Origin: Gammaproteobacteria bacterium
GTDB taxonomy: Bacteria; Pseudomonadota; Gammaproteobacteria; Steroidobacterales; JBCCMA01
Direction: 5' to 3'
Assembly: GCA_045106455.1 (NCBI GenBank)
Contig: JBGCEL010000022.1
Span: forward strand, 13,422 to 77,421
DNA length: 64,000 nucleotides
The notes under the pieces: generated by a model
The model's database searches: none
What the model was told of the DNA's origin: nothing
The model's input: only the letters and a program-made list of their open reading frames with translations
Program-made: the position numbers and the translations under genes
In this document: in pieces, positions 6,237 to 56,221 of the stretch
Position numbering within the stretch: the first letter of the stretch is position 1
How the letters are laid out: every line of letters starts with the position of its first letter

Positions 6237-6251
6237 GCCCTTGGCTTGCGG

Positions 6252-7307: not shown

Positions 7308-7454
7308 AATTTTTTTAAGACGCGGAAAACCTCGGAAATTCGGGGCCTTCAGCGCGATATCGCCGCGAGTCTAACATAGTACGCCGCGGCTCCCTATGAT
7401 CTGTATCACACTGGTTTAACGTACAAATGTTGATGCTCGAAGATGACCTGTTGC

Positions 7455-15623: not shown

Positions 15624-15839
15624 TCTCCGCAGGTCAGGCGCTACATTCTGGAACGAGTCGAGTATGCCATGAGGAAGTCACGTCGACATCACCCATCAGG
15701 CCCTCGCTTTAACGTGTTTTCGATGCCATTGGTCGCACTTAAGACAAACTTTTTGGCCTTCAGCGCAACTAAGTACCTGTCGTTACAGATCATTGCGACG
15801 TCTGCTTCGAAAAATCGACCGAAATATACAGGTTCTTAC

Positions 15840-18941: not shown

Positions 18942-20014
18942 ACAAATTTATTCACAGCGTCGGCGGCACGACGTTGCTACTGGCGGCGGCGTTTTCGTTC
19001 GCACAGGTGCAACCCAGTGCGGTCGTCGTGGCGACGGTGGAGGAGGCGAGCCTTACGCCTACCCAGCCGATCGCAGGCACGGTTTTCTCGCGCCACGACG
19101 TGCAAATAACGGCCGGTGTCGACGGTCAGCTGACGTTTGTGGCCGAACCCGGCACCGTGGTCACGACCGGTGATGTGATCGCCAGTCTCGACGTGGTCCC
19201 GCTGCAGTTGCAGCGTGCAGAACAAAAGGCGCAGCTCGAGCGCGCGCGAGCGCAGGTGAGATACCTGTCGTCGCAGGTGAGTCGCCAACGCGATCTGCCG
19301 AGTATCGCCGCCAATGCGCGCGAGCAAACCGTATCGGACCGTGACGTTGCCGCAAGTGACGTGAAAATTGCGGAACTGCGCATTGCTCAGATCGATCAAC
19401 AGTTGGAGCGTGCGAGCATTAAGGCGCCGTTCACGGGTGTCATGGTGGCGCGTGAACGGCGTGAGGGCGAGGACATTGCGCGCGGCACCGTGTTGGGCCG
19501 CCTGGTCGATTTATCGCGAATTGAAGTGCGGGTCATGGTGCCGCTGCGATTTTACGGTCGTGTGGCGACCGGCGATTCACTGACGTTATACGGCTTTGAA
19601 AAAGAACGCTCCGGTGTCGTGCGCAGCATGATTCCGGCCGTGGATGCGCGTGCGCAGGCGTTTGAACTGCGCATTGATCCGGTTGAGGACGGCGGGCAAT
19701 CCCTCACCATTGGTGAGTTGGTGAGCGTCGCCGTGCCAATGCGCAGCGCGAGCGAGTCGCTCGTCGTGCCGCGTGATGCGCTGATTTTGCGCCGCGATGG
19801 TGCCTTCGTATTCCGCGTCAATGACGATCAAACCGCCACGCGGATTGCCGTGACCACGGGCGACAGCCGCGGCGACGTAGTCGCGGTCAGTGGCGAATTA
19901 CTGGCCGGTGATCAGGTGGTGATACGCGGCGCCGAGTCGCTGCGCGACGGTGCGACCATCAATGTGGTGTCGGCAGGCAGTGGCACCCAGTCTCTGGCCC
20001 GGCCTGCAAGCTAG
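18938..20014 (+). CDS. RND efflux periplasmic adaptor (MFP)
   Basis: Signal peptide, then lipoyl/barrel-sandwich and coiled-coil segments (QLERARAQV...). The ATG overlaps the RND stop (ATGA). Confidence 0.8.
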   Translation: MNKFIHSVGGTTLLLAAAFSFAQVQPSAVVVATVEEASLTPTQPIAGTVFSRHDVQITAGVDGQLTFVAEPGTVVTTGDVIASLDVVPLQLQRAEQKAQLERARAQVRYLSSQVSRQRDLPSIAANAREQTVSDRDVAASDVKIAELRIAQIDQQLERASIKAPFTGVMVARERREGEDIARGTVLGRLVDLSRIEVRVMVPLRFYGRVATGDSLTLYGFEKERSGVVRSMIPAVDARAQAFELRIDPVEDGGQSLTIGELVSVAVPMRSASESLVVPRDALILRRDGAFVFRVNDDQTATRIAVTTGDSRGDVVAVSGELLAGDQVVIRGAESLRDGATINVVSAGSGTQSLARPAS

Positions 20015-20538
20015 GGCTTGGGGACAACCTTGACGATTTTTGCCCCCAGTTTCATGAGTTTCAGAATCACGGGCTTTGGCACCTGACGCATTTGTTCGTA
20101 CCAGGTGGTGGTTTGCTCAACGAAATCGAGCATGTCGTGAATACGCGCCTTGGTTTGCGCGTCCGTTTTTTCATCGTTCTCAGCATCCTCTGAACACTGC
20201 CGCAGCACGGCCAGCGTAGGGTCAATTTCGCGCCGCTTGCGCTGATCCAGAATCACGGCGAATAACTCCCAGACATCCGTCAGTGCTTCAAAATGATCGC
20301 GTCGATCACCAAGACGATGGGTCACTTTAATGAGTCCATAACTGTGCAATTCACGGAGCGACGTCGATACGTTAGAACGTGCGACGGACAGGATGCGTGC
20401 GATATCTTCGGCGGGAAGTGCCGCGGGCGATAGATAGAGCAATGCATGGATTTGGGCGATCGTGCGATTGACGCCCCAGCGCGAACCCATTTCACCCCAG
20501 TGAAGGATGTACTTTTGCACCGTTGGCGAGAGTTCCAT
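20011..20538 (-). CDS. GbsR/MarR-family transcriptional regulator
   Basis: Winged HTH (IARILSVARSNVSTSLRELHSYGLIKV). The N-terminus GEMGSRWGVNRTIAQIHALLY is typical of the GbsR family. Confidence 0.7.
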   Translation of the reverse strand: MELSPTVQKYILHWGEMGSRWGVNRTIAQIHALLYLSPAALPAEDIARILSVARSNVSTSLRELHSYGLIKVTHRLGDRRDHFEALTDVWELFAVILDQRKRREIDPTLAVLRQCSEDAENDEKTDAQTKARIHDMLDFVEQTTTWYEQMRQVPKPVILKLMKLGAKIVKVVPKP

Positions 20539-20583
20539 TGCGTTTCTTCTGTAGTTTCAGATGCATCTGATGATAGCGAGCCG

Positions 20584-20661
20584 CGGACACCGCCCGCAAC
20601 CTCGTGACGAGCTGTCCGCCCATGTGTCCGTTGGGTGTACGCCAGCGGACACATCGGACAC
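20584..20661. promoter_or_regulatory. cluster of CGGACAC / GTGTCCG repeats (candidate enhancer/UAS or operator)
   Basis: CGGACAC occurs at 20584, 20646 and 20655. The inverted copy GTGTCCG is at 20624 and a near copy CTGTCCG at 20612. This includes the 9-bp inverted repeat ATGTGTCCG-N15-CGGACACAT (20622-20654). Confidence 0.45.
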
Positions 20662-20727
20662 TCTTGGGCCGCCGCAGTTCTCCCCAAGACATGAATAAAA
20701 ACAATACGTTAGGAGAAATGAAAAAGT

Positions 20728-20743
20728 TGGCACGCTTCATGCT
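20728..20743 (+). promoter_or_regulatory. sigma-54 (-24/-12) promoter
   Basis: TGGCACGCTTCATGCT against consensus TGGCACG-N4-TTGCW. GG and GC are at the correct spacing. It lies 62 nt upstream of the first ORF of the operon that encodes a sigma-54 activator. Confidence 0.6.
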
Positions 20744-20804
20744 TTGTATCCACTGAGGCGCACAAATTGTCCGCTTCACACTTTCAAAACGCAGGATATG
20801 TGAC

Positions 20805-21014
20805 ATGAATACTTCGCCAGCTCTACACGCCAAACGACTCGCCTTTGTTCTGGGCGGCTGCAGTGTGCTGCTCGAAATGGCCTTTCTCATTGCGGTGAGT
20901 CACGCCCGGGCGCCAGAGGGACAGTTTCTGGCCGGGCAAGATCACACGGTGGCCGCCCACGTCGTGCCGGCACCGCCGGTTGTACTGCTGCCACGTTTTG
21001 AGCTGTCACTGTGA
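20805..21014 (+). CDS. hypothetical small membrane protein (69 aa)
   Basis: AGGA lies 8 nt upstream of the ATG. One hydrophobic helix is predicted (RLAFVLGGCSVLLEMAFLIAV). The stop overlaps the GTG start of the adaptor gene (GTGA). Confidence 0.35.
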   Translation: MNTSPALHAKRLAFVLGGCSVLLEMAFLIAVSHARAPEGQFLAGQDHTVAAHVVPAPPVVLLPRFELSL

Positions 21015-22315
21015 CGGCGCCGGTGCGCAACATCGGACCCCGCGGCAATACGAGTATCCGCGAACCCTCCGCACAGGACACCGTTCGCAGAGACACGACG
21101 CCACGCTGGCGTAAACCCGCCGCGCTGGGCCTCGTAGCGCTGTTGGTGCTCGGCGGACTGTGGTGGCTACTGCAGAATTTCTTATTGGCCGGTTCCGCTA
21201 TCAATGCCGAGCGGTTGCGTTTCGCTACGGTGGAACGCGGCTCGTTTTCGCGCGATATATCAGCCCCTGGCCTCGTCATCGCGGCCGTAAGTCCCACGGT
21301 TTACGCACAAACGGCCGGCACCGTTACGTTAATGGTGAAAGCCGGTGATTTGGTGGAAGCCGGCGACACGCTTGCCAGCATCGACAGCCCCGAGTTGTCC
21401 AACACGCTGGCCCAGGAGCGCGCCACGTTGCAGTCTCTTGAGACCAATCTGAAACGCCGGCTGATCGAACACAAACAACAGTCGCTGCGCTCGCAGGAAG
21501 TCGCTGACGTTGCGCGCATGGACCGTACCGCGGCTGAGCGGGAACTTCGCCGCGCATCAGCGGCCTGGGAGATCCAGGTCATTAGCCGTCAGGACTTTGA
21601 AAAAGCACGCGACGACGTGGAGCGCGCAGGCGTGCGTTTTGAACATGCCAATGCCGGGATGAAACTCGAGCGCGAGAGTCTCGATTTCGAGCTGCAAACC
21701 CTGCGACTCGAGCGTGACCGGCAGTCACTGCGCGTCGATGATTTGGCGCGGCAGGTGACAGGGTTGAGAATTGTCGCGCCCGTTAGCGGCATGGTGGGTA
21801 CGCTCAATGTGGCGCAGAAAGAAGCGGTCAGCGCGAATCAGGCGCTTCTGTCGGTGGTCGACTTAACCGCATTCGAGATAGAAGCTCGTATTGCCCAAAG
21901 CTACGCCGAACGACTGGCGCCCGGCATGAGCGCAAAAATTCGCTATGGCAACGAAGAGCACGACGGCCAGTTGCGCGCGATTTCCCCTGAGGTGACCAAC
22001 AACACGGTGCTGGCGCGCATTCGCTTTAACGAGACCCCCGCGGGTCTGCGTCAGAACCAGCGCGTGACCACCGAGCTTACGCTGGAGTCGGTCGCCGACG
22101 CACTGACGCTGCCACGGGGCGCCTTCATCGACAGCGGTGGCGGTCGGGTGGTTTACGTCGTGGAAGATGACCTGGCCACGCGACGCAGTATTCGCCTGGG
22201 CGCCACCAGCAACGGCCGGGTTGAGGTCCTTGAGGGCCTCGCTCAGGGCGAACGTGTCATTACCTCATCCGTCGATCCGATGCGCGGTGCACAAACCGTG
22301 TTCATCAAGCGCTAA
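21011..22315 (+). CDS. HlyD-family periplasmic adaptor (MacA-like)
   Basis: N-terminal TM anchor (AALGLVALLVLGGLWWLL), long coiled coil, and beta-barrel C-terminus. A GTG start is the only in-frame option near the 5' end. Confidence 0.8.
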   Translation: MTAPVRNIGPRGNTSIREPSAQDTVRRDTTPRWRKPAALGLVALLVLGGLWWLLQNFLLAGSAINAERLRFATVERGSFSRDISAPGLVIAAVSPTVYAQTAGTVTLMVKAGDLVEAGDTLASIDSPELSNTLAQERATLQSLETNLKRRLIEHKQQSLRSQEVADVARMDRTAAERELRRASAAWEIQVISRQDFEKARDDVERAGVRFEHANAGMKLERESLDFELQTLRLERDRQSLRVDDLARQVTGLRIVAPVSGMVGTLNVAQKEAVSANQALLSVVDLTAFEIEARIAQSYAERLAPGMSAKIRYGNEEHDGQLRAISPEVTNNTVLARIRFNETPAGLRQNQRVTTELTLESVADALTLPRGAFIDSGGGRVVYVVEDDLATRRSIRLGATSNGRVEVLEGLAQGERVITSSVDPMRGAQTVFIKR

Positions 22316-22351
22316 TTATTTAACTGCTAGCCAAGATTAAGAGAAAAAATC

Positions 22352-23068
22352 ATGCTCAAAATGGACGACATCAGCCGTGTTTATCAAACCGACCTGGTCG
22401 AAACGCACGCTTTGCGTGGCCTGAGTCTGAACGTAGGCGACGGAGAATTTGTCGCAGTGACCGGACCCTCCGGTTCGGGTAAGACAACGTTCCTGAATAT
22501 TGCCGGACTGCTTGAAGTGCCCAGTAGCGGGCTCTACGAACTCGACGGCGAAGCGGTCAGCGGACTGTCGGACAACCAGCGCTCGCGGATTCGCAATGAA
22601 AAAATTGGCTTTATCTTTCAAAGCTTCAATTTGATTCCGGATCTGAGTCTTTTCGATAACGTGGATGTACCGCTGCGCTATCGCCGTATGCCCGCAAAGG
22701 AACGTGCCGAACGCATCGAATCTGCGCTTGGTCGGGTAGGGCTGCAATCGCGCATGAAGCATCTGCCGTCGCAGCTGTCTGGCGGTCAGCAGCAGCGCGT
22801 TGCGATCGCGCGGGCACTGGCCGGTGAGCCGCGCTTCTTGTTGGCCGATGAGCCCACCGGCAATCTTGATTCACTAATGGCCCGTCAGGTGATGGATATC
22901 CTCGAGGAAATTAACGCCCAGGGCACAACGGTGGTGATGGTGACCCACGACGCGGAGCTGGCGCGTCGCGCACATCGCACCATTTGTTTGCTGGACGGCC
23001 AGGTGACGGACTTCAATCCCTTTGGTGGTCAGCCTGACGATCAAACTGATGTCGCAGTGGGTCAGTAA
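22352..23068 (+). CDS. ABC transporter ATP-binding protein, MacB/LolD type
   Basis: Walker A GPSGSGKTT, signature LSGGQQQRVAIARAL, Walker B FLLADEPT. Confidence 0.9.
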   Translation: MLKMDDISRVYQTDLVETHALRGLSLNVGDGEFVAVTGPSGSGKTTFLNIAGLLEVPSSGLYELDGEAVSGLSDNQRSRIRNEKIGFIFQSFNLIPDLSLFDNVDVPLRYRRMPAKERAERIESALGRVGLQSRMKHLPSQLSGGQQQRVAIARALAGEPRFLLADEPTGNLDSLMARQVMDILEEINAQGTTVVMVTHDAELARRAHRTICLLDGQVTDFNPFGGQPDDQTDVAVGQ

Positions 23069-23069
23069 G

Positions 23070-24386
23070 ATGTTTGCCTATCATTTGAGACTCGCCCTGC
23101 AGAGCTTGCGCAAAAGCCCCATCTTGACCGCGCTGGTCGTGGGCTTGATTGCGCTTGGCGTCGGCATGTCGATGGTGACACTCACGATTCATTCAGCGAT
23201 GTCCGGCGACCCTATCCCCGCCAAGAGCGACGTGCTGTTTAATGTGCAGATCGATAGCTGGAGTGATGAAAACCCGTGGGACGAGGACAAGCCCGACGCA
23301 GCCCCACCGCAACTCACGCACATCGATGCCATGGCGATTCGTGAATTGCCCGGTGTGAAACGTCGCGCCGCCATGTTCAAAGCGGTTTACACCGTGGTGC
23401 CGGACGACCCGGAACTCAAGCCATTTTTCGCCGGTGCGCGCATGACCGACAGTGATTTTTTCGACATGTTCCAGGTGCCGTTTGTCTACGGCGGCGGCTG
23501 GTCGGCAAGCGTAGATCAGCAGGCGGAGCGGGTCGTTGTGCTCACGCATCGCATTAACGAGAAGTTCTTTGGCGGTGAAAACAGCGTTGGCAAAACCATT
23601 GCGCTTGGCACGGAACGTTTCAAAGTGGTGGGTGTGATAGATCACTGGGAGCCAACTCCGACGTTCTATGATCTTAATAACGGTTTTTTCGACGACACGC
23701 AGGATGTGTTCTTGCCGTTCTCGATGTTGCAGTTTGGGCAGCTGGATCGTGCGGGCAATACCAACTGCTGGGGACCGGGTGATAACACGAAATGGGAAGA
23801 CTTCCTGCTCAGTACCTGCAACTGGATTCAGCTGTGGGTGGAGTTTGATTCAGCCTCCGACGTCCCGGCGTTCCAGCGCGAGCTGGATGCGTACGCCAAC
23901 GGACAAAAAGAACTGGGGCGCTTGCCGCGCGATCTGAACAATCCGCTGATGAATGTGAACGATTGGCTTGCTCACAATGAAGTGGTGGGCGAAGACAATA
24001 CGGTACTGGTCGGGCTGTCGTTCTTGTTTTTGGCGGTGTGTTTGTTTAACGCCGTGGGCATTCTGCTGGCACGCTTCCAGGGCAAGGCCGGTGTGATTGG
24101 CGTGCGGCGTGCGCTTGGCGCAAGCAAAGGCGCCATCTTTCGCCAGCATTTAGTGGAAGTGGCGATGATCGGGGTGTTCGGTGGGTTGGTCGGGCTCGCC
24201 TTGAGCTGGCTAGGTCTCTATGCGGTGCGCAAACTGATGCGCGGCTACGAACATTTGGTGCACCTGGATATGAGCCTCGTGCTCACAGCCGTGGGCATCG
24301 CCGTGATCTCTGCCGTACTGGCCGGTTTGTACCCAACATGGCGCGTGTGTCAGGTGACACCGGCCAGCTACCTCAAAACACAATAG
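23070..24386 (+). CDS. ABC transporter permease, FtsX family with MacB-type periplasmic domain
   Basis: ATG 23070 lies directly after the ATPase stop. TM1 is followed by a periplasmic loop of about 280 aa, then three C-terminal TMs with the FtsX motif (RRALGASKGAIFRQ). Confidence 0.85.
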   Translation: MFAYHLRLALQSLRKSPILTALVVGLIALGVGMSMVTLTIHSAMSGDPIPAKSDVLFNVQIDSWSDENPWDEDKPDAAPPQLTHIDAMAIRELPGVKRRAAMFKAVYTVVPDDPELKPFFAGARMTDSDFFDMFQVPFVYGGGWSASVDQQAERVVVLTHRINEKFFGGENSVGKTIALGTERFKVVGVIDHWEPTPTFYDLNNGFFDDTQDVFLPFSMLQFGQLDRAGNTNCWGPGDNTKWEDFLLSTCNWIQLWVEFDSASDVPAFQRELDAYANGQKELGRLPRDLNNPLMNVNDWLAHNEVVGEDNTVLVGLSFLFLAVCLFNAVGILLARFQGKAGVIGVRRALGASKGAIFRQHLVEVAMIGVFGGLVGLALSWLGLYAVRKLMRGYEHLVHLDMSLVLTAVGIAVISAVLAGLYPTWRVCQVTPASYLKTQ

Positions 24387-24395
24387 GACATCATC

Positions 24396-25601
24396 ATGTT
24401 TGGACCCATCCTGCGTGCCATGTCACGCAACAAGACCGGCGCCGTTCTGGTGGCGTTTCAGATCGCCATTGCCCTGGCGGTGACCGTTAATGCGGTGTTC
24501 ATCATGCAGCAGCGCATTGCCTTCATGCAGCGTGACAGCGGCCTCGCGATCGATAACATTATTGCGGTCGGTAGTTTCGGCTTTGCCTCGGACTACGATC
24601 ACCACGCGACGGTCAATGCCGACCTCGATTTGCTGCGCAGTTTGCCGGGCGTGCGCTCTGCAACACCGAGCGATTCCGTGCCCTTAAGTGGCAGCGGCAG
24701 TGCCAACGGCTTCGAATCTGAGCCTGGCGACCTTGGCAATGAAGCCACCGCCAATTATTACGGTATCGATGAGCAGGGCGTTGAGACGCTTGGTATCACC
24801 CTTCGAGAAGGGCGCGGGTTTCGAGCCGAAGAGATTTATCGCGTAGCACTCGGTGAGCAGCATTCATCGACGCAGGCCATTGTTACCGCGCGCTTTGCCA
24901 GCCAGCTATTTCCAGATGAAACCAGCTATTTGGGCAAGGTGTTTTACGACGGTGCCGATTCGCCCATGGAGATCATTGGCGTGATTGAGAAAATGCAGGG
25001 TGCGTGGCTTGGCTGGGACGAGGTCGAAAACGTTGTCCTGATGCCGTTTATCCGCGGCGGACCGATGGTGCGCTATATGCTGAACGTGGAAGAAGATCAG
25101 TTGGAAACACTCATCCCCATGGTGGAAGAGACGCTCGCTTCGAGTAGCTCCACACGGCTGATCAATCAAGTGATGAGTTTGCGCGAAATATCCGATAAGT
25201 CGTACTCAGGCGATCGCGGCATGGCGGTGGCGCTCATGGTTGTGATTGCACTGTTGGTGACCGTCACGGCGCTGGGCATTGTGGGGTTGGCCTCCTTCAA
25301 CGTGCGCCAGCGCACCAAACAGATCGGCACGCGGCGTGCGGTGGGTGCCAAACGATCCGACATTCTGCGTTATTTTCTGGCTGAGAATTGGCTCATGACC
25401 ACGGCCGGTGTGATTCTGGGTATCGTCCTGACGTTGTTACTCAACTACTATTTGGCCAGCGAATATTCACTGGACCTCATTGACCCGGTGTACTTGCCGG
25501 TGGGTGTTCTCACGATGTGGGCGCTGGGCTTGCTGGCGGTACTCGGTCCGGCCCGGCGCGCCTCGGTTATTTCTCCTGCAGTTGCCACACGGACGGTTTA
25601 A
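24396..25601 (+). CDS. ABC transporter permease, FtsX family (second, distinct subunit)
   Basis: Same architecture as the first permease (TM1, periplasmic domain, RRAVGAKRSDILRYF FtsX motif), but clearly divergent in sequence. Confidence 0.85.
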   Translation: MFGPILRAMSRNKTGAVLVAFQIAIALAVTVNAVFIMQQRIAFMQRDSGLAIDNIIAVGSFGFASDYDHHATVNADLDLLRSLPGVRSATPSDSVPLSGSGSANGFESEPGDLGNEATANYYGIDEQGVETLGITLREGRGFRAEEIYRVALGEQHSSTQAIVTARFASQLFPDETSYLGKVFYDGADSPMEIIGVIEKMQGAWLGWDEVENVVLMPFIRGGPMVRYMLNVEEDQLETLIPMVEETLASSSSTRLINQVMSLREISDKSYSGDRGMAVALMVVIALLVTVTALGIVGLASFNVRQRTKQIGTRRAVGAKRSDILRYFLAENWLMTTAGVILGIVLTLLLNYYLASEYSLDLIDPVYLPVGVLTMWALGLLAVLGPARRASVISPAVATRTV

Positions 25602-25633
25602 ACCTCTTGAGCACCGATCACGTCAAATCTTAT

Positions 25634-26968
25634 ATGCAAACTGTACTTGTCGTTGACGACAACGCGGCCGTCAGAACCGCGCTTGAACTGCTGTTTTCGT
25701 TGCACGACCTGGCCGTGGTTTCGGCGGCGAATGCGGATGAAGGTCTTGCCGCCCTCGACGCTCACAGCATCGATCTGGTGGTACAGGACATGAACTTCTC
25801 AAAAGACACGACGTCTGGCGAGGAGGGCATTGAGCTGTTCCGTCGTGTGCGCGAAAAAGAACCGGATTTGCCGGTGATTTTGCTCACCGCCTGGACCGAT
25901 CTGGAAACCGCCATCGAGTTGGTCAAAGCAGGCGCGGCAGACTATCTGGCCAAGCCGTGGGACGATTTGAAACTGGTGACGACCGCGCGCAACTTGCTCG
26001 AGCTGCGCGAGGCCTCTTTGCGGTCGCGCCAGCTGCTGGCGTCGCGTTCGGCGTCACGGCGCAATCTGGCGCAGAAGTTTGATCTGTGCGGCATCGTGTA
26101 TGAAAGCGAAGCAATGCACGAATTGGTGACACTGGCCACACGCATTGCGCACGCGGATGTGCCGGTGCTGATCACAGGCCCCAACGGTGCAGGCAAGGAA
26201 AAGCTGGCAGAAATTGTGCAGGCCAATTCGGACCGCAGCGATAAACCGTTCGTGAAGGTGAACGTCGGCGCTCTGCCCGCCGACCTGATGGAAAGCGAAC
26301 TGTTTGGCGCGGAAGCGGGTGCGTATACCGGGGCCAAAACGGCCAGAGAAGGACGTTTTGAAGCGGCGGACGGCGGCACATTATTTTTGGACGAAATCGG
26401 CAACTTGAGTCTGGATGGCCAGGCGAAACTCCTGCGCGTTCTGCAAACCGGCGAGTTTGAACGATTGGGCAGCAGCCAAACTCGTCACGTTGAGGTGCGC
26501 GTGATTAGCGCCACCAATGCCGACTTGCCTGCCGCCGTGCGCGAAGGCACCTTTCGTGAAGATTTGTTCTACCGACTTAACGTCATTCAGCTCGAGCTAC
26601 CGCCATTGATCGAGCGACCTGACGATGTTCTGCCATTGGCCTTACATTTTTTGGAGGCGTCGAGTTCATTGTCGGTGGAGGCGGAGGCGGCATTGATGCG
26701 CCACAACTGGCCCGGCAACGTGCGCGAACTGCAAAACAGTCTGCGGCGGGCGTGCTTGTTGGCGGGCTCAGAGCGTATCGGCGCTGAAGACCTGCAGCTG
26801 GCATCAACGGTTGTGCAAGAGGCGCGTATCGGCCATGAGCCAGACAAAGCGCAGGTGCTAGCGGCGCTCGAACAGGCACGCGGTGTGGTGGCGCGCGCGG
26901 CCAGAGCACTCGGGATGAGTCGTCAGGCGTTATATCGACGCATGGAGAAATTTGGCATCAGCAAGTAG
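25634..26968 (+). CDS. sigma-54-dependent response regulator (NtrC family)
   Basis: REC domain (VVDDN, acceptor Asp in VVQDMNF, KPW). AAA+ domain with GPNGAGKE, ESELFGAEAGAYTGA and RVISATN. C-terminal Fis-type HTH. ATG 25634 chosen. Confidence 0.9.
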   Translation: MQTVLVVDDNAAVRTALELLFSLHDLAVVSAANADEGLAALDAHSIDLVVQDMNFSKDTTSGEEGIELFRRVREKEPDLPVILLTAWTDLETAIELVKAGAADYLAKPWDDLKLVTTARNLLELREASLRSRQLLASRSASRRNLAQKFDLCGIVYESEAMHELVTLATRIAHADVPVLITGPNGAGKEKLAEIVQANSDRSDKPFVKVNVGALPADLMESELFGAEAGAYTGAKTAREGRFEAADGGTLFLDEIGNLSLDGQAKLLRVLQTGEFERLGSSQTRHVEVRVISATNADLPAAVREGTFREDLFYRLNVIQLELPPLIERPDDVLPLALHFLEASSSLSVEAEAALMRHNWPGNVRELQNSLRRACLLAGSERIGAEDLQLASTVVQEARIGHEPDKAQVLAALEQARGVVARAARALGMSRQALYRRMEKFGISK

Positions 26969-26995
26969 TTGCGTTTGCGTTCGCCGGGTAACAAC

Positions 26996-28318
26996 ATGCG
27001 TTTCATGGGTCGATACTCGTTAGGCGGAAAAGTGGCGTTTGCGCTGTCGGTGGTCGTGGTGATCACGGTGGCCGTTACCGTGCTGTTGATGCGTTCTCTC
27101 ACCAGTCCTTGGCTGGCATTCGTGATTGCACTGACTCTTGGCATCACGCTTGCCGCGCTGGCAGGCAACGCCCTGATGCGCCCGGTTCGACGCTTAATTC
27201 TGGCCCTCAGCGACGGCGTCTCGGGCCTCAAAGATGGCGACTTCAGCACCGGCATCGCGACGCGCAGGCGCGATGAAATTGGGCAGCTGGTTGAGGTGTA
27301 TAACGATCTGGGCGATGTCTTGCGCCGTGAACGCCAAAGTTTGTTTCAACGCGAGTTGCTCCTCGATACCGTCATTCAAACGACGCCGCTGGCGCTCGTG
27401 CTAACCAATCGCAATGATCGAGTGGTGTACAGCAACGGCGCCGCGCGGCATTTGTTTCGTGGCGGCAAGCCGCTCAACGGCTGCGATTTTGGCACCACGC
27501 TGACACCGCTTGACGACGGCTTTTCACGAGCGGTGTCGGCGCGTCGTGATGGCTTGTTTAGCGTCGGAGATGATGACGATCCGCAGACCTATCATTTGTC
27601 GTGCCGCCACTTTGAACTCAATGCGCAACCGCACCGTTTGTATTTGTTCAAGCGGCTAACCCACGAGCTGAATCGGCAGGAAGTGGCGACCTGGAAAAAG
27701 GTCATTCGCGTGATCAGTCACGAACTCAATAACTCATTGGCACCGATTTCCTCGCTGGCCCATTCGGGCGGACTGGTATTGCAAAAAGCGGATCAGAGCC
27801 GTCTCGGTGAGATATTTGAGACCATTGAAGAACGCGCCAGTCATTTGAAAGATTTTATTGAAGGCTACGCGCGCTTCGCAAGATTGCCCGCACCACGTAT
27901 CGAATCGGTGGGTATAGCCGAACTGCTATCGGGCCTGCGCAACACGATGACATTTCGTGCCACGCCTGAAGCGCCGGAGGGCCGCATTGATGTGGATCCG
28001 GGGCAGTTTGAACAAGTGATGATCAACCTGCTCAAAAACGCGCAGGAGGCGGGTGGTGAAGCGGACGCTATTGAGCTGCGTGTGACCGTCAATGGAGCCG
28101 TTACTCGTTTTGAAGTGTGCGATCGTGGTAGCGGTATGTCGGAGCAGGTGCTCAAAAATGCGCTGCTGCCGTTTTATTCCACAAAGCAAAGTGGCACCGG
28201 ATTAGGTTTGCCACTGTGCCGCGAAATTGTGGAAGCGCACGGCGGCCGCCTGAGCCTGACCAATCGGGTCGGCGGGGGTCTAAAAGTCACCATAACGCTC
28301 GGCCGCACCGACGGTTGA
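26996..28318 (+). CDS. sensor histidine kinase, two TM helices with a minimal external loop, HAMP-PAS-HisKA-HATPase
   Basis: TM1 is KVAFALSVVVVITVAVTVLLM, followed by the 6-aa loop RSLTSP and TM2 WLAFVIALTLGITLAALAG. Then HAMP, PAS, H-box ISHELNNSLAPI and G-boxes (DRGSGM, GTGLGL). Confidence 0.85.
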   Translation: MRFMGRYSLGGKVAFALSVVVVITVAVTVLLMRSLTSPWLAFVIALTLGITLAALAGNALMRPVRRLILALSDGVSGLKDGDFSTGIATRRRDEIGQLVEVYNDLGDVLRRERQSLFQRELLLDTVIQTTPLALVLTNRNDRVVYSNGAARHLFRGGKPLNGCDFGTTLTPLDDGFSRAVSARRDGLFSVGDDDDPQTYHLSCRHFELNAQPHRLYLFKRLTHELNRQEVATWKKVIRVISHELNNSLAPISSLAHSGGLVLQKADQSRLGEIFETIEERASHLKDFIEGYARFARLPAPRIESVGIAELLSGLRNTMTFRATPEAPEGRIDVDPGQFEQVMINLLKNAQEAGGEADAIELRVTVNGAVTRFEVCDRGSGMSEQVLKNALLPFYSTKQSGTGLGLPLCREIVEAHGGRLSLTNRVGGGLKVTITLGRTDG

Positions 28319-28319
28319 G

Positions 28320-28360
28320 GCCGTTTTCATTCGCTTTGGGAAGGCCTTCCCACAAACGGC
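28320..28360 (+). terminator. nested hairpin after the kinase gene (terminator-like)
   Basis: GCCGTTT...AAACGGC flanks the perfect palindrome GGGAAGGCCTTCCC (28338-28351). There is no strong T-run. Confidence 0.4.
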
Positions 28361-28487
28361 GCACATGGCTGTGGTAGGCGCGCCAGTCATGCTCTATTCT
28401 CTAGACTTACGGCAAACATCGCTCAAAAACATAATACAAACAGATATTTGCTTGGGTGCTAATTAGTGAGAGTCGGTCAGAATAATA

Positions 28488-31211
28488 ATGACCAGTGCAC
28501 GACAACGCGTGTCCGAAATATTTTTCGCCGTGTGCGATCTTTCGGCCATCGAGCGCAATGCTGCGCTCGATAACCTGTGTGGAGACGATGCGTCTTTGCG
28601 GGCAGATGTGCTCGCGATGCTTGGGGTCGCAAGTGAGGCGGCGACAGGCAACTTAACCAACATTGTTGAGCGCGGTGCACGTGATGCGAGCGTCAATATC
28701 GCACGCGAATTTGAAGACATGCCAACGCAGATTGGTGCGTATGAAATTTTGCGCGAAATTGGCGAAGGCGGTATGAGCGTTGTCTATGAAGCGCAGCAGT
28801 CCGAACCGGTGCGCCGTATCGTAGCGCTAAAAGTCATTCGTCCCGGCATGGACACGCGTGAGGTGATCGCGCGCTTTGAGTCGGAGCGTCAGGCTCTGGC
28901 GGTCATGGATCATCCCAATATTGCACAGATATTCGATGCCGGCACCGCCGACAACGGGCGCCCGTATTTTGTGATGGAGCGGGTACATGGCGTACCGCTC
29001 ACCGAGTACTGTGACGGGCGCAAGCTGTCGGTGAACGATCGGCTCGGCGTGTTTTTAAGCGTGTGTGATGCCATTGCGCATGCGCATCAAAAAGGCGTCG
29101 TACATCGTGACCTCAAGCCGTCCAACATTTTGGTCGCCGAGCACGATGGGAAACCCCAGGTCAAAGTGATCGACTTCGGTATCGCCAAAGCCGTTGATGC
29201 ATCGCTCGCCGATGATCCTTTGGTCACGCGTATTGGGCAGCTGATCGGTACACCGGGATATATGAGCCCGGAACAGGCTGGCGGCAAGGTGGAGCAGATC
29301 GATACGCGCACCGACGTCTATGCTCTGGGCGTCGTGCTTTACCAACTGCTTGTGGGCGTGCTGCCGCACGACATGGCCAGTCGCTCGCCTGAAGAGCTGC
29401 GCACGCTCGCTCAGGACGGGGTTACGCCGCGGCCGAGCGCTCGGCTGAATCGTTTGGGGGAGAGCAAAACGCAGGCCGCGGCCCAGCGTGCCACTGACGC
29501 ATCAACGTTGCGCTCGGCGCTCGCCACGTCGCTGGATTGGGTGGTCCTCAAAGCCATGGCGCGTGAGCGCTCGCGGCGCTATCAATCGGTATTCGAATTC
29601 AAAGCCGACGTGCGCAACTATCTTGCCCATCGACCCGTGGATGCCAGGCCGCCCAGCCGGCGCTATGCCATGGGCCAGTTCGTACGTCGAAACCGCAGTG
29701 TTGTCACGGTGGCAGGCATCGTGCTCGTAGCGCTGATCGCCGGGGTAACGACGGCCACGATCGGTCTGGTCAAGGCCACCAAAGCTGAACAGCTCGCGCG
29801 CAAAGAGGCACAGACCGCTACGCGCGTGACCGAGCTGATTAGTGATTTTTTTCGCAGCGAAGATCCATCAGTTGCGCTGGGTAACGACGTCAAAGTGATT
29901 GACGTGCTCGACGACAATGTGGCGCGTATTGCCGATACGCTCGTGGACGAGCCCGAAGTGCAGGCCCGCCTGCTCATGACCATAGGCACGCTCTACAACA
30001 ACATGGCCGAACCGGCGAAGGCCAAACCGGTTCTGCAGCAAGCGCTGGCGCAGCAGGAACGCGTTGATCGAGGTGACACGAATCAGACGACCCGAGCCGA
30101 GCTGGCAGAAATTCTGGCGCAACTCGGTGAATCGCATCGTCAGACCGATGCCATGGACGATGCCCTAGTGACTCACGAGCGCGCGCTTGACTTGCGGCGT
30201 CAACATTACGGCGAACGTAGTTTGCCCGTGGCAGCGTCACTCAACGATTTGGGTCAGGTGCATCTGGGTCTGGGCGACTATGGCCCAGCGCAAGAGCGGA
30301 TATCGCAAGCCATCGACATGGCTCGCCCGTTCAGTCCCGAGCCCGAGGCGTTGGAGCTTCTGAGTTACTCGCTCAATTCGCGCGCCGTGGTCGCAAGCCT
30401 GAACAGCAACCTCGAGGCGGCCGAGTTGGCCCATCGCGAAGCACTTGAGATAAAAACACAACTCTACGGCGAGGTTCACCCATCAATTGCCACAACCTTG
30501 AGCAATCTGGGCTCGGTGTTGGCGAAGCAACAAAAATACGTGGAGGCCGAAGCGGTCTATCGGCATGCGCTTGCCATGCGCGAAACCGTGTTCAAGTCGG
30601 ACAACGGCCCGGTGGGCACCACGATCAACAATTTGGCGCTGCTGCTATATAGGCAAGGAAACCTTGATGAGGCCGAGACGTTGTATCGCCGTTCGTTGGT
30701 TATTCGTAAACAGGAAGCGTACCCAAGCGCCGCCGTCGCCACTACGTTGAACAACCTTGCCGGACTGTTAAGGAAAAAGGGCAACGCCGTGCAGGCCGAA
30801 GCCGCGTACGTCGAATCGGTCGACGTGCGCACGGCGGTACAAGGCGCCACGCATCCCAATACCGCGATAACCCGGATGAACCTAACGGAACACCGATTGA
30901 GCATGGGCAACGAAGCGGCGGCTTGCGCCGATATTGGGGAAATTGTGGGGCTTCTCACCGCGGGCTTGCGCGCGGGGCATTGGCGTCTGGCGCAAGCGCA
31001 GAGTATTGCCGGTGCCTGCGCCATTCACGCCGGGGAGGTGGAGCGGGCCGAAGAATTGCTGAACGGCAGTTATGTTGCTTTGAAGGAAAAGCGGGGCGGG
31101 GATGCGGAACCTACGCGCAGAGCGCTGGCGTACCTTGTCGAGCTGTATACGTTACTGGACCGGCCGAAGCGTCGCGCTGAATTTGAGCTACTTTTAGACC
31201 AAACACTCTAG
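28488..31211 (+). CDS. Ser/Thr protein kinase with TM segment and long C-terminal TPR array
   Basis: Hanks kinase motifs GEGGMSVVY, VALKV, HRDLKPSNIL, DFGIAK and GTPGYMSPE. A TM helix follows (VVTVAGIVLVALIAGVTTATIGLV), then about 480 aa of TPR repeats. Confidence 0.88.
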   Translation: MTSARQRVSEIFFAVCDLSAIERNAALDNLCGDDASLRADVLAMLGVASEAATGNLTNIVERGARDASVNIAREFEDMPTQIGAYEILREIGEGGMSVVYEAQQSEPVRRIVALKVIRPGMDTREVIARFESERQALAVMDHPNIAQIFDAGTADNGRPYFVMERVHGVPLTEYCDGRKLSVNDRLGVFLSVCDAIAHAHQKGVVHRDLKPSNILVAEHDGKPQVKVIDFGIAKAVDASLADDPLVTRIGQLIGTPGYMSPEQAGGKVEQIDTRTDVYALGVVLYQLLVGVLPHDMASRSPEELRTLAQDGVTPRPSARLNRLGESKTQAAAQRATDASTLRSALATSLDWVVLKAMARERSRRYQSVFEFKADVRNYLAHRPVDARPPSRRYAMGQFVRRNRSVVTVAGIVLVALIAGVTTATIGLVKATKAEQLARKEAQTATRVTELISDFFRSEDPSVALGNDVKVIDVLDDNVARIADTLVDEPEVQARLLMTIGTLYNNMAEPAKAKPVLQQALAQQERVDRGDTNQTTRAELAEILAQLGESHRQTDAMDDALVTHERALDLRRQHYGERSLPVAASLNDLGQVHLGLGDYGPAQERISQAIDMARPFSPEPEALELLSYSLNSRAVVASLNSNLEAAELAHREALEIKTQLYGEVHPSIATTLSNLGSVLAKQQKYVEAEAVYRHALAMRETVFKSDNGPVGTTINNLALLLYRQGNLDEAETLYRRSLVIRKQEAYPSAAVATTLNNLAGLLRKKGNAVQAEAAYVESVDVRTAVQGATHPNTAITRMNLTEHRLSMGNEAAACADIGEIVGLLTAGLRAGHWRLAQAQSIAGACAIHAGEVERAEELLNGSYVALKEKRGGDAEPTRRALAYLVELYTLLDRPKRRAEFELLLDQTL

Positions 31212-31279
31212 TGGAGCGCAGGCTCCGGTAGGACAACGACCCTGGCTGGGTAGATAAAAATTGAGATCCGAGGGGATAT

Positions 31280-56062: not shown

Positions 56063-56221
56063 ATTGTCATCACTGTTTGTACCCCCCCACCCGACATATC
56101 CTCAAACGGTCGCAAGGACGATTAAGACAACTCGCAGGGTGCACCTGGACTCCACCCCTTTGTTGTTCGAAATCACGCGACACGACGTTCGAAAATAATG
56201 GCGCAGTGGAGGCACCAACAA

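What the first reader, a model, noticed from the sequence alone, without database searches (positions are those of the whole stretch)
20584..28318. Sigma-54-wired MacB-type ABC efflux module whose kinase has no sensor domain (possible proteobacterial analogue of Bce-type transporter-coupled sensing)
Seen in sequence: one co-directional gene string with gaps of 0-36 nt. It runs from a 69-aa membrane ORF (its stop overlaps the next start) through a HlyD-family adaptor and a MacB/LolD-type ATPase to two different FtsX permeases. Each permease has a large periplasmic loop, which implies a heterodimer as in LolCE. The string ends with an NtrC-family regulator (REC, AAA+, Fis HTH) and a histidine kinase. 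The kinase has two TM helices separated by only about 6 residues (RSLTSP) before HAMP-PAS-HisKA-HATPase, so it has no periplasmic input domain. A near-consensus sigma-54 promoter lies 62 nt upstream of the first ORF. Established knowledge: FtsX/MacB (type VII) ABC transporters work by mechanotransmission. In Firmicutes, BceS-type intramembrane-sensing kinases have no input domain of their own and read the activity of the cognate FtsX-family BceAB transporter. Inference: this locus may be a Gram-negative, sigma-54-dependent version of that logic, a self-inducing export or detoxification unit. Its substrate is unknown and no outer-membrane factor is encoded locally. I cannot tell from sequence alone whether this combination has been described before.
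Basis: partly seen in the sequence, partly recalled or inferred. Interest (0 to 1): 0.75.

Follow-up and report, generated by a model that had tools for sequence, protein, structure and literature searches.

The report
Sigma-54 autoregulated MacB-type pump operon
This is a real, widely conserved but unstudied operon in which a MacB-type export pump is switched on through sigma-54 by its own regulator and by a membrane kinase with no outside-facing sensor; the kinase may read the pump itself, as in Gram-positive Bce systems, but that remains untested.

Summary
Window 20805-28318 carries seven co-directional genes: a small membrane ORF, a TM-anchored adaptor, a MacB/LolD-like ATPase, two different FtsX/MacB_PCD permeases, an NtrC-family activator and a histidine kinase. 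Gaps are -4 to 36 nt. The kinase has two TM helices joined by 3-6 residues, so it has no periplasmic domain. It does have a conserved cytoplasmic HAMP and PAS-like domain, so "no sensor domain" overstates.

Comparative data add four points:
- The kinase family occurs in at least 595 species-level genomes.
- 54 of 58 informative loci have the permease pair(s) and activator directly upstream. The string persists at about 30% identity.
- A sigma-54 -24/-12 motif precedes the adaptor gene in 38 of 43 loci.
- An array of TGTCCG half-sites lies 50-125 nt upstream of that motif in 36 of 36 loci.

This is a self-contained, very probably autoregulated sigma-54 pump module. Whether the kinase reads the transporter (as with BceS or PhoR) or senses directly is undecided; I favour transporter relay at about 0.4. 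No experimental description was found. One 2025 in-silico paper notes sigma-54 promoters upstream of FtsX permease genes. Verdict: new variant of a known kind, moderate interest.

The parts
20584..20660 (.). Upstream activator sequence. Five TGTCCG/CGGACA half-sites lie at 20584, 20613, 20625, 20646 and 20655. They include a 16-bp palindrome, TGTACG-CCAG-CGGACA, at 20636-20651. This is the presumed binding array for the operon's own activator.
   Evidence: The hexamer is at chance level over the whole window (39 hits against 42 expected), but five fall within 77 nt here. It occurs in 36 of 36 orthologous upstream regions against 3 of 36 coding controls. The sites cluster 50-125 nt upstream of the -24 element at roughly 10-12 nt spacing. 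They form a conserved island in the alignment with close relatives and are present in the distant relative L090.
20690..20727 (.). A/T-rich spacer between the activator sites and the promoter. It may be a DNA-bending (IHF-type) region.
   Evidence: An A/T-rich stretch sits at the same position in the four aligned relatives and in L090. The IHF role is inference only.
20728..20743 (+). Sigma-54 promoter (-24 TGGCAC, -12 TGCT): TGGCACGCTTCATGCT.
   Evidence: Read directly from the sequence. The same motif occurs exactly once upstream of the adaptor gene in 38 of 43 orthologous loci, against about 0.0075 expected per locus. It is invariant in the alignment with close relatives. No sigma-70-like site lies in this intergenic region.
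20805..21014 (+). orf69, a small protein with one hydrophobic helix (residues about 11-34) and a 35-residue Pro-rich tail. Its stop overlaps the adaptor start. It is specific to this clade.
   Evidence: A 69-aa ORF sits at the same place in three relatives, with 54-80% identity. Nucleotide differences to L087 by codon position are 8, 4 and 36. It has no Pfam or NCBIfam match. Other clades carry unrelated small ORFs here or none at all.
21011..22315 (+). Periplasmic adaptor (membrane fusion protein) with an N-terminal TM anchor at residues about 35-61.
   Evidence: Pfam HlyD_3 and HlyD_D23. NCBIfam RND_mfp scores 152 bits, above its 94.9 cut-off. The MacA equivalog scores 72 bits against 342, so that test is not met.
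22352..23068 (+). ABC ATPase of the MacB/LolD/FtsE/DarD type, encoded as a separate polypeptide.
   Evidence: ABC_tran E=3e-31. The best NCBIfam matches are DarD (266 bits against a 375 cut-off), the MacB NBD (219 bits) and LolD (218 bits). All are below their cut-offs.
23070..24386 (+). Permease 1 (FtsX1): 4 TM helices with a large periplasmic domain between TM1 and TM2.
   Evidence: MacB_PCD E=1e-23 and FtsX E=2e-14. It matches positions 4-401 of the 803-position ADOP duplicated-permease model. Four hydrophobic segments are present.
24396..25601 (+). Permease 2 (FtsX2): same fold, different sequence. It is the presumed heterodimer partner.
   Evidence: FtsX E=4e-17 and MacB_PCD E=7e-10. It matches positions 411-801 of the ADOP model, that is, the other half.
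25634..26968 (+). NtrC-family response regulator and sigma-54 activator (REC, AAA+ with a GAYTGA loop, Fis-type HTH).
   Evidence: Response_reg 9e-24, Sigma54_activat 2e-67 and HTH_8 3e-11. No NCBIfam equivalog is reached: NtrC scores 367 against 559 and NtrX 287 against 600. GAYTGA and the GPNGAGKE Walker A motif were read in the translation.
26996..28318 (+). Histidine kinase. By residue: TM1 13-32, loop 33-38 (RSLTSP), TM2 39-60, HAMP 61-125, PAS-like 126-224, DHp 225-296 (H-box SHELNNS) and catalytic domain 297-440.
   Evidence: Pfam HAMP, HisKA and HATPase_c. Hydropathy. AlphaFold secondary structure and pLDDT. Structural matches to WalK, VicK and LOV-kinase proteins. Column conservation is 0.39-0.47 in the TM helices and loop, against 0.69-0.80 in the cytoplasmic domains.

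Best explanation
SHOWN
- The locus is one self-contained operon that forms a conserved module in Gammaproteobacteria.
- It encodes the inner-membrane part of a MacB-type (type VII ABC) tripartite pump. The parts are a TM-anchored adaptor, a separate ATPase and two different 4-TM permeases, each with a periplasmic MacB_PCD domain.
- Downstream lie the pump's own NtrC-family activator and a bifunctional-type histidine kinase. The kinase is anchored by two TM helices joined by only a few residues, followed by HAMP, a PAS-like domain, DHp and the catalytic domain.
- In front lies a sigma-54 promoter preceded by an array of TGTCCG half-sites.

INFERRED
- The phosphorylated activator binds the TGTCCG array and opens the sigma-54 promoter. 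It thereby raises the pump, itself and its kinase together (positive autoregulation).
- The two permeases form a heterodimer with two ATPase copies. The adaptor bridges to a TolC-like channel encoded elsewhere.
- By MacB-family mechanotransmission, the pump expels a periplasmic or outer-leaflet substrate that is still unknown.

INFERRED, FAVOURED BUT UNPROVEN (about 0.4)
- The kinase cannot see the periplasm.
- It keeps a conserved HAMP directly after poorly conserved TM helices.
- So its signal most likely arrives through those helices from a membrane partner. That partner would be the transporter complex, whose permeases carry the periplasm-exposed receptor-type domains (MacB_PCD) of the operon.
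- The logic would be that of BceS with BceAB, or of PhoR with Pst.
For: Anatomy.

Linkage:
- The kinase family is found in at least 595 species-level genomes.
- Of 58 loci with at least 9 kb upstream, 39 have adaptor-ATPase-FtsX1-FtsX2-activator-kinase; 37 of them keep that order (two of these with a second permease pair) and two depart slightly. A further 15 have two to four permease pairs plus the activator.
- The same string is present where the kinase N-terminal module is only 30-32% identical.

Cis elements:
- The sigma-54 motif is present in 38 of 43 loci.
- The TGTCCG hexamer is present in 36 of 36 upstream regions against 3 of 36 controls, clustered 50-125 nt upstream of the -24 element.
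- The alignment with close relatives shows conserved islands at exactly these elements. L090 has the same layout.
- The organism uses sigma-54. A flagellar cluster with three exact consensus promoters and FleQ- and FleR-like activators lies in the same window.

Input route:
- No family member has room for a periplasmic domain.
- HAMP conservation is 0.74, against 0.39-0.47 for the TM helices and loop.
- MacB-type pumps act on periplasmic substrates (PMC5985334).
- BceS needs BceAB (PMC4513084, PMC10314905) and PhoR needs Pst and PhoU (PMC9239213). These are precedents for kinases without an external domain reading an ABC transporter.
Against: - No experiment exists for any member.
- Synteny is expected anyway if the pump is merely the target of the regulators.
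- The kinase has a well conserved PAS-like domain (0.69) that could bind a ligand directly.
- Some relatives have two to four permease pairs but one kinase. That is awkward for a specific TM-to-TM contact.
- Four of 58 kinase loci lack the transporter nearby.
- In Dyella the TM1-TM2 loop is about 25 residues long.
- No separate promoter for the activator and kinase genes was found in this window. How basal regulator levels arise is therefore unexplained.
- Binding of the activator to TGTCCG is inferred from co-conservation only.
Confidence: 0.5

Rival explanations
1. Direct sensing. The kinase perceives the stimulus itself, and the pump is only the output. The stimulus could be an amphiphile or bilayer perturbation acting on the TM helices and HAMP, or a cytoplasmic ligand or redox signal at the PAS-like domain. 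This would resemble ordinary two-component control of efflux pumps, or ArcB-type PAS sensing.
For: - A conserved PAS-like fold lies between HAMP and DHp.
- One kinase serves loci with up to four permease pairs.
- A few kinase loci have no transporter nearby.
- Two-component control of MacAB by kinases that sense on their own is known, for example PhoPQ (PMC5985334).
Against: - The TM helices are the least conserved part of the protein, which argues against a conserved intramembrane ligand site.
- A purely cytoplasmic ligand would not need the membrane anchor and HAMP that every member keeps.
- MacB-type substrates are periplasmic, and the kinase has nothing in the periplasm.
Confidence: 0.35
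2. Small-protein gating. The first gene, orf69 in this clade, encodes a single-pass membrane protein. Its level in the membrane would be read by the kinase TM helices, or would modulate them. The analogy is PilA acting on PilS, or small-protein modulators of kinases. Alternatively it could be a pump accessory subunit of the AcrZ type.
For: - orf69 is a real gene under purifying selection and is translationally coupled to the adaptor.
- A small ORF occupies this slot in about nine further loci. A small secreted ORF sits between the activator and kinase genes in Dyella.
- PilS senses PilA within the membrane and signals to a sigma-54 activator (PMC6058289).
Against: - Most loci leave no room for such an ORF between promoter and adaptor gene.
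- Where small ORFs are present, they are not homologous between clades. This cannot be the core mechanism of the family.
Confidence: 0.08
3. Dedicated exporter. The pump exports a self-made product from the periplasm, possibly the small first-gene peptide after Sec export. MacAB-TolC does this for enterotoxin STII. The kinase and activator would then form an autoinduction loop rather than a detoxification response.
For: - Small ORFs with signal-peptide-like N-termini lie directly before the adaptor gene in several clades.
- The ATPase is closest to the darobactin export ATPase DarD.
- MacAB exports STII from the periplasm (PMC5985334).
Against: - The small ORF is absent from most loci and is not conserved in sequence.
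- No peptide-modifying enzyme lies in the string.
- The DarD, DarB and DarC scores are all below their family cut-offs.
- The hydrophobic stretch of orf69 is about 22-24 residues long, which looks more like a TM anchor than a cleavable signal.
Confidence: 0.07

Closest known systems
BceRS-BceAB modules of Firmicutes (flux sensing)
   Same: - The permease belongs to the FtsX/MacB (type VII) superfamily.
- The kinase has two TM helices, a minimal outside loop and a HAMP.
- Kinase and transporter genes are tightly linked.
- The transporter carries the only large extracytoplasmic domain.
   Different: - BceB is a single 10-TM polypeptide with one extracellular domain. Here there are two 4-TM permeases with two periplasmic domains, plus an adaptor for a tripartite pump.
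- BceS has no PAS domain.
- BceR is an OmpR-type regulator acting at a sigma-70 promoter. Here the regulator is an NtrC-type activator acting at a sigma-54 promoter.
- bceRS and bceAB are separate transcription units. Here everything sits in one string.
- Dependence of signalling on the transporter is shown for Bce (PMC4513084, PMC10314905). It is untested here.
PhoR-PhoB with PstSCAB-PhoU (Proteobacteria)
   Same: - The kinase has two TM helices, almost no periplasmic loop and a cytoplasmic PAS before DHp-CA.
- Its signal comes from an ABC transporter rather than an external sensor domain (PMC9239213).
- The PAS-DHp-CA part weakly matches the PhoR model.
   Different: - Pst is an importer of another ABC fold.
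- PhoU is the go-between, and no PhoU-like gene is present here.
- PhoB is OmpR-type.
- The PhoR model scores 65 bits against a 334 cut-off, so this kinase is not a PhoR.
PilS-PilR
   Same: A proteobacterial kinase senses a partner protein inside the membrane. It signals to an NtrC-family activator that drives a sigma-54 promoter for the gene of that same partner (PMC6058289).
   Different: PilS has six TM segments and senses pilin, not a transporter. It has no HAMP-PAS arrangement like the one here, and no ABC pump is involved.
MacAB-TolC and LolCDE (type VII ABC systems)
   Same: - The 4-TM FtsX fold with a MacB_PCD periplasmic domain.
- An adaptor with an N-terminal TM anchor, as in MacA.
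- A two-permease heterodimer with a separate ATPase, as in LolCDE (PMC5985334).
   Different: - MacB is a homodimer with a fused ATPase, and in E. coli it is regulated by PhoPQ.
- Lol has no adaptor.
- All MacB, MacA, LolC, LolE and LolD equivalog scores are far below their cut-offs.
ADOP duplicated permeases and the darobactin exporter DarBCD
   Same: FtsX1 matches the N-terminal half and FtsX2 the C-terminal half of the ADOP model. The ATPase is closest to DarD, and the adaptor also hits DarC.
   Different: - The permease here is split into two genes rather than fused.
- The scores are below the family cut-offs: 148 and 192 bits against 622, and 266 against 375.
- No radical-SAM maturase is present.
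In-silico link between sigma-54 promoters and FtsX permease genes (PMC12316311, 2025)
   Same: The paper reports enrichment of predicted sigma-54 promoters upstream of COG0577 (FtsX-type permease) genes in gamma-Proteobacteria, Opitutia and Bacteroidia.
   Different: It is a COG-level statistic only. In the passages read, nothing on the operon, the cognate activator and kinase, the TGTCCG sites or the sensor-less kinase was found.

Membership tests
MacB/FtsX (type VII) ABC transporter superfamily | Permease with four TM helices, a large periplasmic MacB_PCD domain between TM1 and TM2, and an FtsX C-terminal domain. | tested here: met
   Both permeases hit MacB_PCD and FtsX above the gathering scores. 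Each has four hydrophobic segments.
MacB/FtsX (type VII) ABC transporter superfamily | Cognate ATPase of the MacB/LolD/FtsE clade. | tested here: met
   The top NCBIfam matches are DarD, the MacB NBD, LolD and FtsE, with E-values of 1e-64 to 1e-79.
MacAB proper (E. coli-type) | Fused ATPase-permease homodimer, with MacB and MacA equivalog scores reached. | tested here: not met
   The ATPase is a separate gene and there are two different permeases. The MacB model scores 219, 42 and 65 bits against a 966 cut-off. MacA scores 72 against 342.
LolCDE | LolC, LolE and LolD equivalogs, with no adaptor protein. | tested here: not met
   lolCE scores 32 and 26 bits against 362. LolD scores 218 against 308. 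An adaptor gene is present.
ADOP duplicated permease (TIGR03434) | A single polypeptide of about 800 aa with two permease units, scoring above the family cut-off. | tested here: not met
   Two separate genes match model positions 4-401 and 411-801, with 148 and 192 bits against a 622 cut-off.
Bce-type module | BceB-type permease: 10 TM helices with one extracellular domain between TM7 and TM8. | tested here: not met
   There are two 4-TM permeases, each with its domain between TM1 and TM2. The BceB definition is from PMC5985334.
Bce-type module | Kinase with two TM helices and a minimal extracellular loop. | tested here: met
   The loop is 3-6 residues. The N-terminal membrane module is no more than about 85 residues in 109 homologs.
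Bce-type module | Kinase cytoplasmic part consisting only of HAMP, DHp and CA, with an OmpR-family partner regulator. | tested here: not met
   A PAS-like domain is present. The partner is an NtrC-family activator.
Bce-type module | Signalling requires the transporter and its ATP hydrolysis. | not testable with these tools
   This needs genetics or biochemistry. Only linkage was measured here.
NtrC-family bacterial enhancer-binding protein | REC domain, an AAA+ sigma-54 interaction domain with a GAFTGA-type loop, and a Fis-type HTH. | tested here: met
   All three Pfam domains are present. A GAYTGA loop is read in the translation and is also present in the Dyella ortholog.
NtrC, NtrX, AtoC and ZraR equivalogs | Score above the curated NCBIfam cut-off. 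| tested here: not met
   NtrC scores 367 against 559, AtoC 358 against 714, NtrX 287 against 600 and ZraR 293 against 760.
NtrY (the name some sources give to homologs) | NtrY-type kinase partnered with NtrX. | tested here: inconclusive
   JGI labels several homologs NtrY. No NtrY model appears among the 25 best NCBIfam matches, and the partner fails the NtrX cut-off. From my own knowledge, NtrY proteins are much longer, at about 750 aa. No direct comparison was run.
Sigma-54 dependent promoter | GG at -24 and GC at -12 with the correct spacing, conserved among orthologs, plus upstream activator sites. | tested here: met
   TGGCAC-N5-ATGCT. Present in 38 of 43 loci. The TGTCCG array is present in 36 of 36. 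Footprints are seen in the alignment and in L090. Actual RpoN dependence was not tested.
PhoR | PhoR equivalog score and a PhoU partner. | tested here: not met
   TIGR02966 scores 65 bits against 334. No PhoU-like gene lies in the string.

The most novel reading that the evidence does not exclude
This would be a Gram-negative counterpart of Bce-type flux sensing. The sensor-less HAMP-PAS kinase would sit in a complex with the heterodimeric MacB-type pump and convert its mechanotransmission cycle into sigma-54-dependent, need-based self-induction. It would be the first such transporter-kinase sensory complex outside Firmicutes, the first on a tripartite pump and the first with an enhancer-binding-protein output. 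It is conserved in hundreds of gammaproteobacterial species, and the permease pairs are amplified in some lineages.
Probability: 0.35. Interest if true: 0.7.

Novelty: new variant of a known kind. Interest (0 to 1): 0.5.

Why it matters
ABC-type tripartite pumps of Gram-negative bacteria are poorly understood at the level of regulation. How a cell learns that a periplasmic substrate needs pumping is known in mechanistic detail only for Gram-positive Bce modules.

This locus defines a large, coherent and uncharacterised family, with its cis-elements already mapped by comparison: TGTCCG half-sites, an A/T-rich spacer and a sigma-54 promoter. Members occur in named, sequenced strains (Dyella, Rhodanobacter, Luteibacter, Frateuria, Arenimonas, Solimonas), so the hypothesis can be tested directly.

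If the kinase reads the pump, flux sensing would extend to Gram-negative envelopes and to sigma-54 control. If it does not, the family is still a clean example of an autoregulated sigma-54 efflux operon with an unknown inducer and substrate.

Tried and rejected
- **Literature.** Four searches found no experimental description of such a module. They combined MacB or FtsX with sigma-54 or enhancer-binding protein, and with histidine kinase or intramembrane sensing. The only hit was the COG-level 2025 study.
- **Single-window statistics for the promoter.** These are not significant. I therefore relied on cross-genome conservation.
- **Sigma-70 promoter and terminator scans.** These were at chance level. 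No internal promoter for the regulator genes and no internal terminator could be named.
- **Rfam.** No known RNA element lies in 20000-28700.
- **Pfam and NCBIfam on orf69.** Nothing was found.
- **PAS.** Pfam missed it at E<=0.01. It was accepted only after the structure model and fold matches.
- **Small ORF as a core component.** Rejected, because it is absent or non-homologous in most loci.
- **Local outer-membrane factor.** None was found in the window.
- **Downstream Ser/Thr kinase-TPR gene and the 554-aa gene as part of the module.** Rejected, because they are syntenic only in close relatives.
- **The four exceptional kinase loci (L033, L042, L043, L086).** I listed the ORFs but did not annotate them.
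- **Not attempted.** Kinase-permease co-evolution analysis and multimer modelling.

Full report
**1. What is in the sequence**

Window 20805-28318 carries seven co-directional ORFs on the + strand. I refined the start codons from alignments with homologs:

| Gene | Coordinates |
|---|---|
| orf69 | 20805-21014 |
| adaptor | 21011-22315 (GTGA start/stop overlap) |
| ATPase | 22352-23068 |
| FtsX1 | 23070-24386 |
| FtsX2 | 24396-25601 |
| activator | 25634-26968 |
| kinase | 26996-28318 |

- Pfam gives HlyD_3 and HlyD_D23 for the adaptor and ABC_tran for the ATPase.
- Both permeases hit MacB_PCD plus FtsX.
- The regulator has Response_reg, Sigma54_activat, AAA_lid_14 and HTH_8. The kinase has HAMP, HisKA and HATPase_c.
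- The translation shows a GAYTGA loop and a Walker A motif in the activator. It also shows an SHELNNS H-box in the kinase.

**2. The pump**

- NCBIfam puts the ATPase nearest to DarD, the MacB NBD, LolD and FtsE.
- FtsX1 matches positions 4-401 and FtsX2 positions 411-801 of the 803-position ADOP duplicated-permease model. The two genes therefore correspond to the two halves of a fused permease. This supports a heterodimer better than the LolCE analogy alone.
- Each permease has four hydrophobic segments. The adaptor has an N-terminal TM anchor.
- All equivalog scores (MacB, MacA, LolC/E/D, DarB/C/D, ADOP) are below their cut-offs. This is a member of the MacB/FtsX superfamily but of none of its named families.
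- hmmscan of the listed ORFs of 200 aa or more found no outer-membrane factor (OEP) domain; for the 35108-38572 genes this rests on the precomputed Pfam hits of the identical contig L004.

**3. The kinase**

- Hydropathy and an AlphaFold model built on 20 homologs agree on the N-terminal topology.
  - Helices span residues 9-34 and 38-79, with a three-residue break inside RSLTSP.
  - Model quality is modest overall (mean pLDDT 67). It is 81-88 in the TM helices and 77-87 in residues 131-200.
- After a HAMP region, the model shows the strand and helix order of a PAS fold at about residues 130-222.
  - Pfam did not call this domain.
  - A PDB profile search aligns the protein with VicK over residues 37-436.
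  - Foldseek puts WalK, LOV-kinase chimeras, VicK, YF1 and ThkA on top. All of these are HAMP/PAS-DHp-CA kinases.
- The statement 'no periplasmic input domain' is therefore confirmed. The title's 'no sensor domain' is not.
- In 109 homologs the conserved HAMP motif begins at median residue 78 and at most 97.
- 113 cluster representatives match the TM-HAMP-PAS module at E<=1e-30. Nearly all are 430-470 aa long with the match starting near their N-terminus.
- A Dyella ortholog has a longer loop of about 25 residues, which is still too short for a folded domain.
- Column conservation in the alignment is 0.39-0.47 for the TM helices and loop. It is 0.74 for HAMP, 0.69 for PAS, 0.80 for DHp and 0.69 for the catalytic domain.

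**4. Is the string more than chance?**

The taxa include Woeseiaceae, Steroidobacteraceae, Nevskiales, Kangiella, Lysobacterales and Rhodanobacteraceae. Named strains of Dyella, Rhodanobacter, Luteibacter, Frateuria, Arenimonas and Solimonas are among them.
- For the best 80 loci plus contigs found by exact protein look-up, I mapped the window's proteins by tblastn. Among 58 loci with at least 9 kb upstream:

| Arrangement | Loci |
|---|---|
| adaptor-ATPase-FtsX1-FtsX2-activator-kinase (37 in that order, two of them with a second pair; two with slight departures) | 39 |
| two to four FtsX1-FtsX2 pairs followed by activator and kinase (front of operon beyond the flank) | 15 |
| activator and kinase only | 2 |
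| kinase alone | 2 |

- Two distant relatives have the same six-gene string. Their TM-HAMP-PAS module is only 30-32% identical to the window's.
- The flanking genes are not conserved. The six genes form a self-contained module.

**5. The promoter**

- TGGCACGCTTCATGCT lies at 20728-20743, 61 nt before orf69.
- Within this window alone such a match is not significant: 8 matches at one mismatch or fewer, against 3.5 expected.
- Across genomes it is significant. Exactly one TGG[CT]A[CT]-N5-NTGC motif lies in the 600 nt before the adaptor gene in 38 of 43 loci. About 0.0075 per locus is expected.
- The hexamer TGTCCG (or its complement) is present in 36 of 36 regions upstream of these promoters, against 3 of 36 coding controls.
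  - Three to five copies cluster 50-125 nt upstream of the -24 element, often 10-12 nt apart or as TGTCCG-N4-CGGACA palindromes.
- In the window the copies are at 20584, 20613, 20625, 20646 and 20655, with one more at 20768. The hexamer is at chance frequency elsewhere.
- An alignment of the intergenic region with three relatives has conserved islands exactly at the hexamer array, an A/T-rich stretch and the -24/-12 element. The relatives' kinases are 68-83% identical to the window's.
- The distant, lower-GC locus L090 has the same layout.
- From my own knowledge, TGTCCG-N4-CGGACA fits the TGT-N10-ACA pattern known for NifA-type activator sites.
- The window also holds a flagellar cluster.
  - It has FleQ-like and FleR-like activators.
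  - It has three exact sigma-54 consensus matches: one in the gap before a rod gene, one before the FleS-like kinase gene and one near flgA.
  - The organism evidently uses sigma-54.
- No sigma-70-like site lies in the orf69 upstream region, and no known RNA element is present.

**6. The small ORF**

- orf69 has no family match. A 69-aa ORF sits at the same place in the three closest relatives, with 54-80% identity.
- Nucleotide differences to the nearest relative fall 8, 4 and 36 by codon position. It is a real gene.
- It has a basic N-terminus, a hydrophobic stretch of about 22-24 residues and a 35-residue Pro-rich tail. That suggests an N-in single-pass membrane protein.
- About nine other loci have a 68-93-aa ORF in this slot. 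These fall into unrelated sequence types, some with signal-peptide-like N-termini.
- Most loci have the promoter 10-90 nt from the adaptor gene, which leaves no room for such an ORF. It is a clade-specific accessory, not part of the core.

**7. How it most likely works**

- *Shown:* the anatomy, the conserved linkage and the conserved cis-elements.
- *Inferred with good support (about 0.85):*
  - The operon's own activator binds the TGTCCG array and activates the sigma-54 promoter.
  - The pump, activator and kinase therefore rise together.
  - The two permeases form a heterodimer with two ATPase copies. The adaptor links them to a TolC-like channel encoded elsewhere.
  - As in other MacB-type systems, the substrate is taken from the periplasm or outer leaflet (PMC5985334).
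- *Signal input:*
  - The kinase cannot contact the periplasm.
  - Every member keeps a membrane anchor followed at once by a well conserved HAMP, a module that relays movements of TM helices.
  - The TM helices themselves are the least conserved part. That argues against a conserved intramembrane ligand pocket. It is compatible with a co-evolving protein contact.
  - The periplasm-exposed receptor-type domains in the operon are those of the permeases.
  - I therefore favour a relay from the transporter complex to the kinase, at about 0.4. Precedents are BceAB-BceS (PMC4513084, PMC10314905) and Pst-PhoU-PhoR (PMC9239213).
- *Main rival (about 0.35):* direct sensing by the conserved PAS-like domain or by the TM/HAMP unit.
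  - It is supported by the PAS domain itself.
  - It is also supported by loci where one kinase serves two to four permease pairs, and by the four loci without a transporter.
- *Minor rivals:* gating by the small membrane protein (a PilA-PilS analogy, PMC6058289), and a dedicated exporter for a small secreted product (an STII-MacAB analogy, PMC5985334).
- *Unexplained:* no separate promoter for the regulator genes is evident here. The source of basal activator is open.

**8. Comparison with what is known**

- The module works like a two-component-regulated efflux operon, and possibly like a Bce module. It is not a member of the Bce family.
  - The permease architecture, the presence of PAS, the regulator family and the promoter type all differ.
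- It is not MacAB, LolCDE, DarBCD, ADOP, NtrBC, NtrYX, AtoSC, ZraSR or PhoR by curated cut-offs. Some sources nevertheless label the kinase NtrY.
- The idea that a proteobacterial kinase without an external domain reads an ABC transporter is not new (PhoR).
- A sigma-54 two-component system that senses a partner within the membrane is also not new (PilS).
- A 2025 computational survey noted that predicted sigma-54 promoters are enriched upstream of FtsX-type permease genes in gamma-Proteobacteria, Opitutia and Bacteroidia. It called this a previously unrecognised axis (PMC12316311). In the passages I read I found nothing on this operon, its regulators or its binding sites.
- I found no experimental work on any ortholog.

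**9. Verdict**

- The module is a new variant of known kinds. It is widespread, coherent, uncharacterised and directly testable in named sequenced strains.
- Interest is moderate at 0.5. It would rise to about 0.7 if transporter-coupled sensing were demonstrated.

Noticed in passing
L015, L028, L041, L050, L060, L067 and others (Rhodanobacteraceae and Lysobacterales loci), upstream of the kinase: The FtsX1-FtsX2 permease pair is tandemly amplified to two to four pairs. In the loci where the front is visible, these sit behind a single adaptor and a single ATPase gene. This suggests several substrate specificities sharing one motor and one regulator pair.
   Followed up: partly
L002 3710-3940; L007 3684-3917; L008 3670-3942; L009 3775-3981; L013 3161-3442; L020 3301-3564; L046 3095-3301; L069 3841-4065; L090 3800-3931: The slot between the sigma-54 promoter and the adaptor gene holds a small ORF (43-93 aa) in a minority of loci. 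These ORFs fall into mutually unrelated sequence types. Some have signal-peptide-like N-termini and some are Cys-containing. Several overlap the adaptor start.
   Followed up: partly
L041 (Dyella sp. KULCS107) 5708-7495 and 9382-9801: In this variant locus a 595-aa gene is inserted between the last permease gene and the activator gene. An ORF with a signal-peptide-like start (MSKRLLLVPLL...) lies between the activator and kinase genes. The kinase TM1-TM2 loop there is about 25 residues long.
   Followed up: no
window 40378-63053: This is a flagellar gene cluster. It holds FlgA, FlgD, FlgE, a rod protein, FlgI, FlgK, flagellin, FliD, FliF, FliG, a FleQ-like activator without REC (56198-57334), a FleS-like kinase (57456-58661) and a FleR-like activator (58693-60060). 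Exact sigma-54 consensus matches lie at 41354, 44908 and 57401.
   Followed up: partly
window 15669-20538: An AcrB-family RND transporter (1090 aa) is followed by its adaptor (358 aa). A convergent (tail-to-tail) MarR-like regulator gene (20011-20538, minus strand) follows; its start faces the sigma-54 promoter region, divergent from the operon. This second efflux system lies immediately upstream of the operon and is syntenic only in close relatives.
   Followed up: no
window 28488-32944: A 907-aa Ser/Thr protein kinase with TPR repeats is followed by a 554-aa protein with no Pfam match. Both lie directly downstream of the histidine kinase gene. They are conserved in position only in the closest relatives.
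   Followed up: no
window 20768-20773: A sixth TGTCCG copy lies downstream of the sigma-54 promoter, inside the presumed 5' untranslated region. Similar copies at +27 to +40 occur in L008, L009, L013 and L068. Their role is unknown.
   Followed up: no
L033, L043 (kinase alone); L042, L086 (activator and kinase only): Four of 58 kinase loci have no transporter genes within 10 kb upstream. I listed the neighbouring ORFs but did not annotate them.
   Followed up: no
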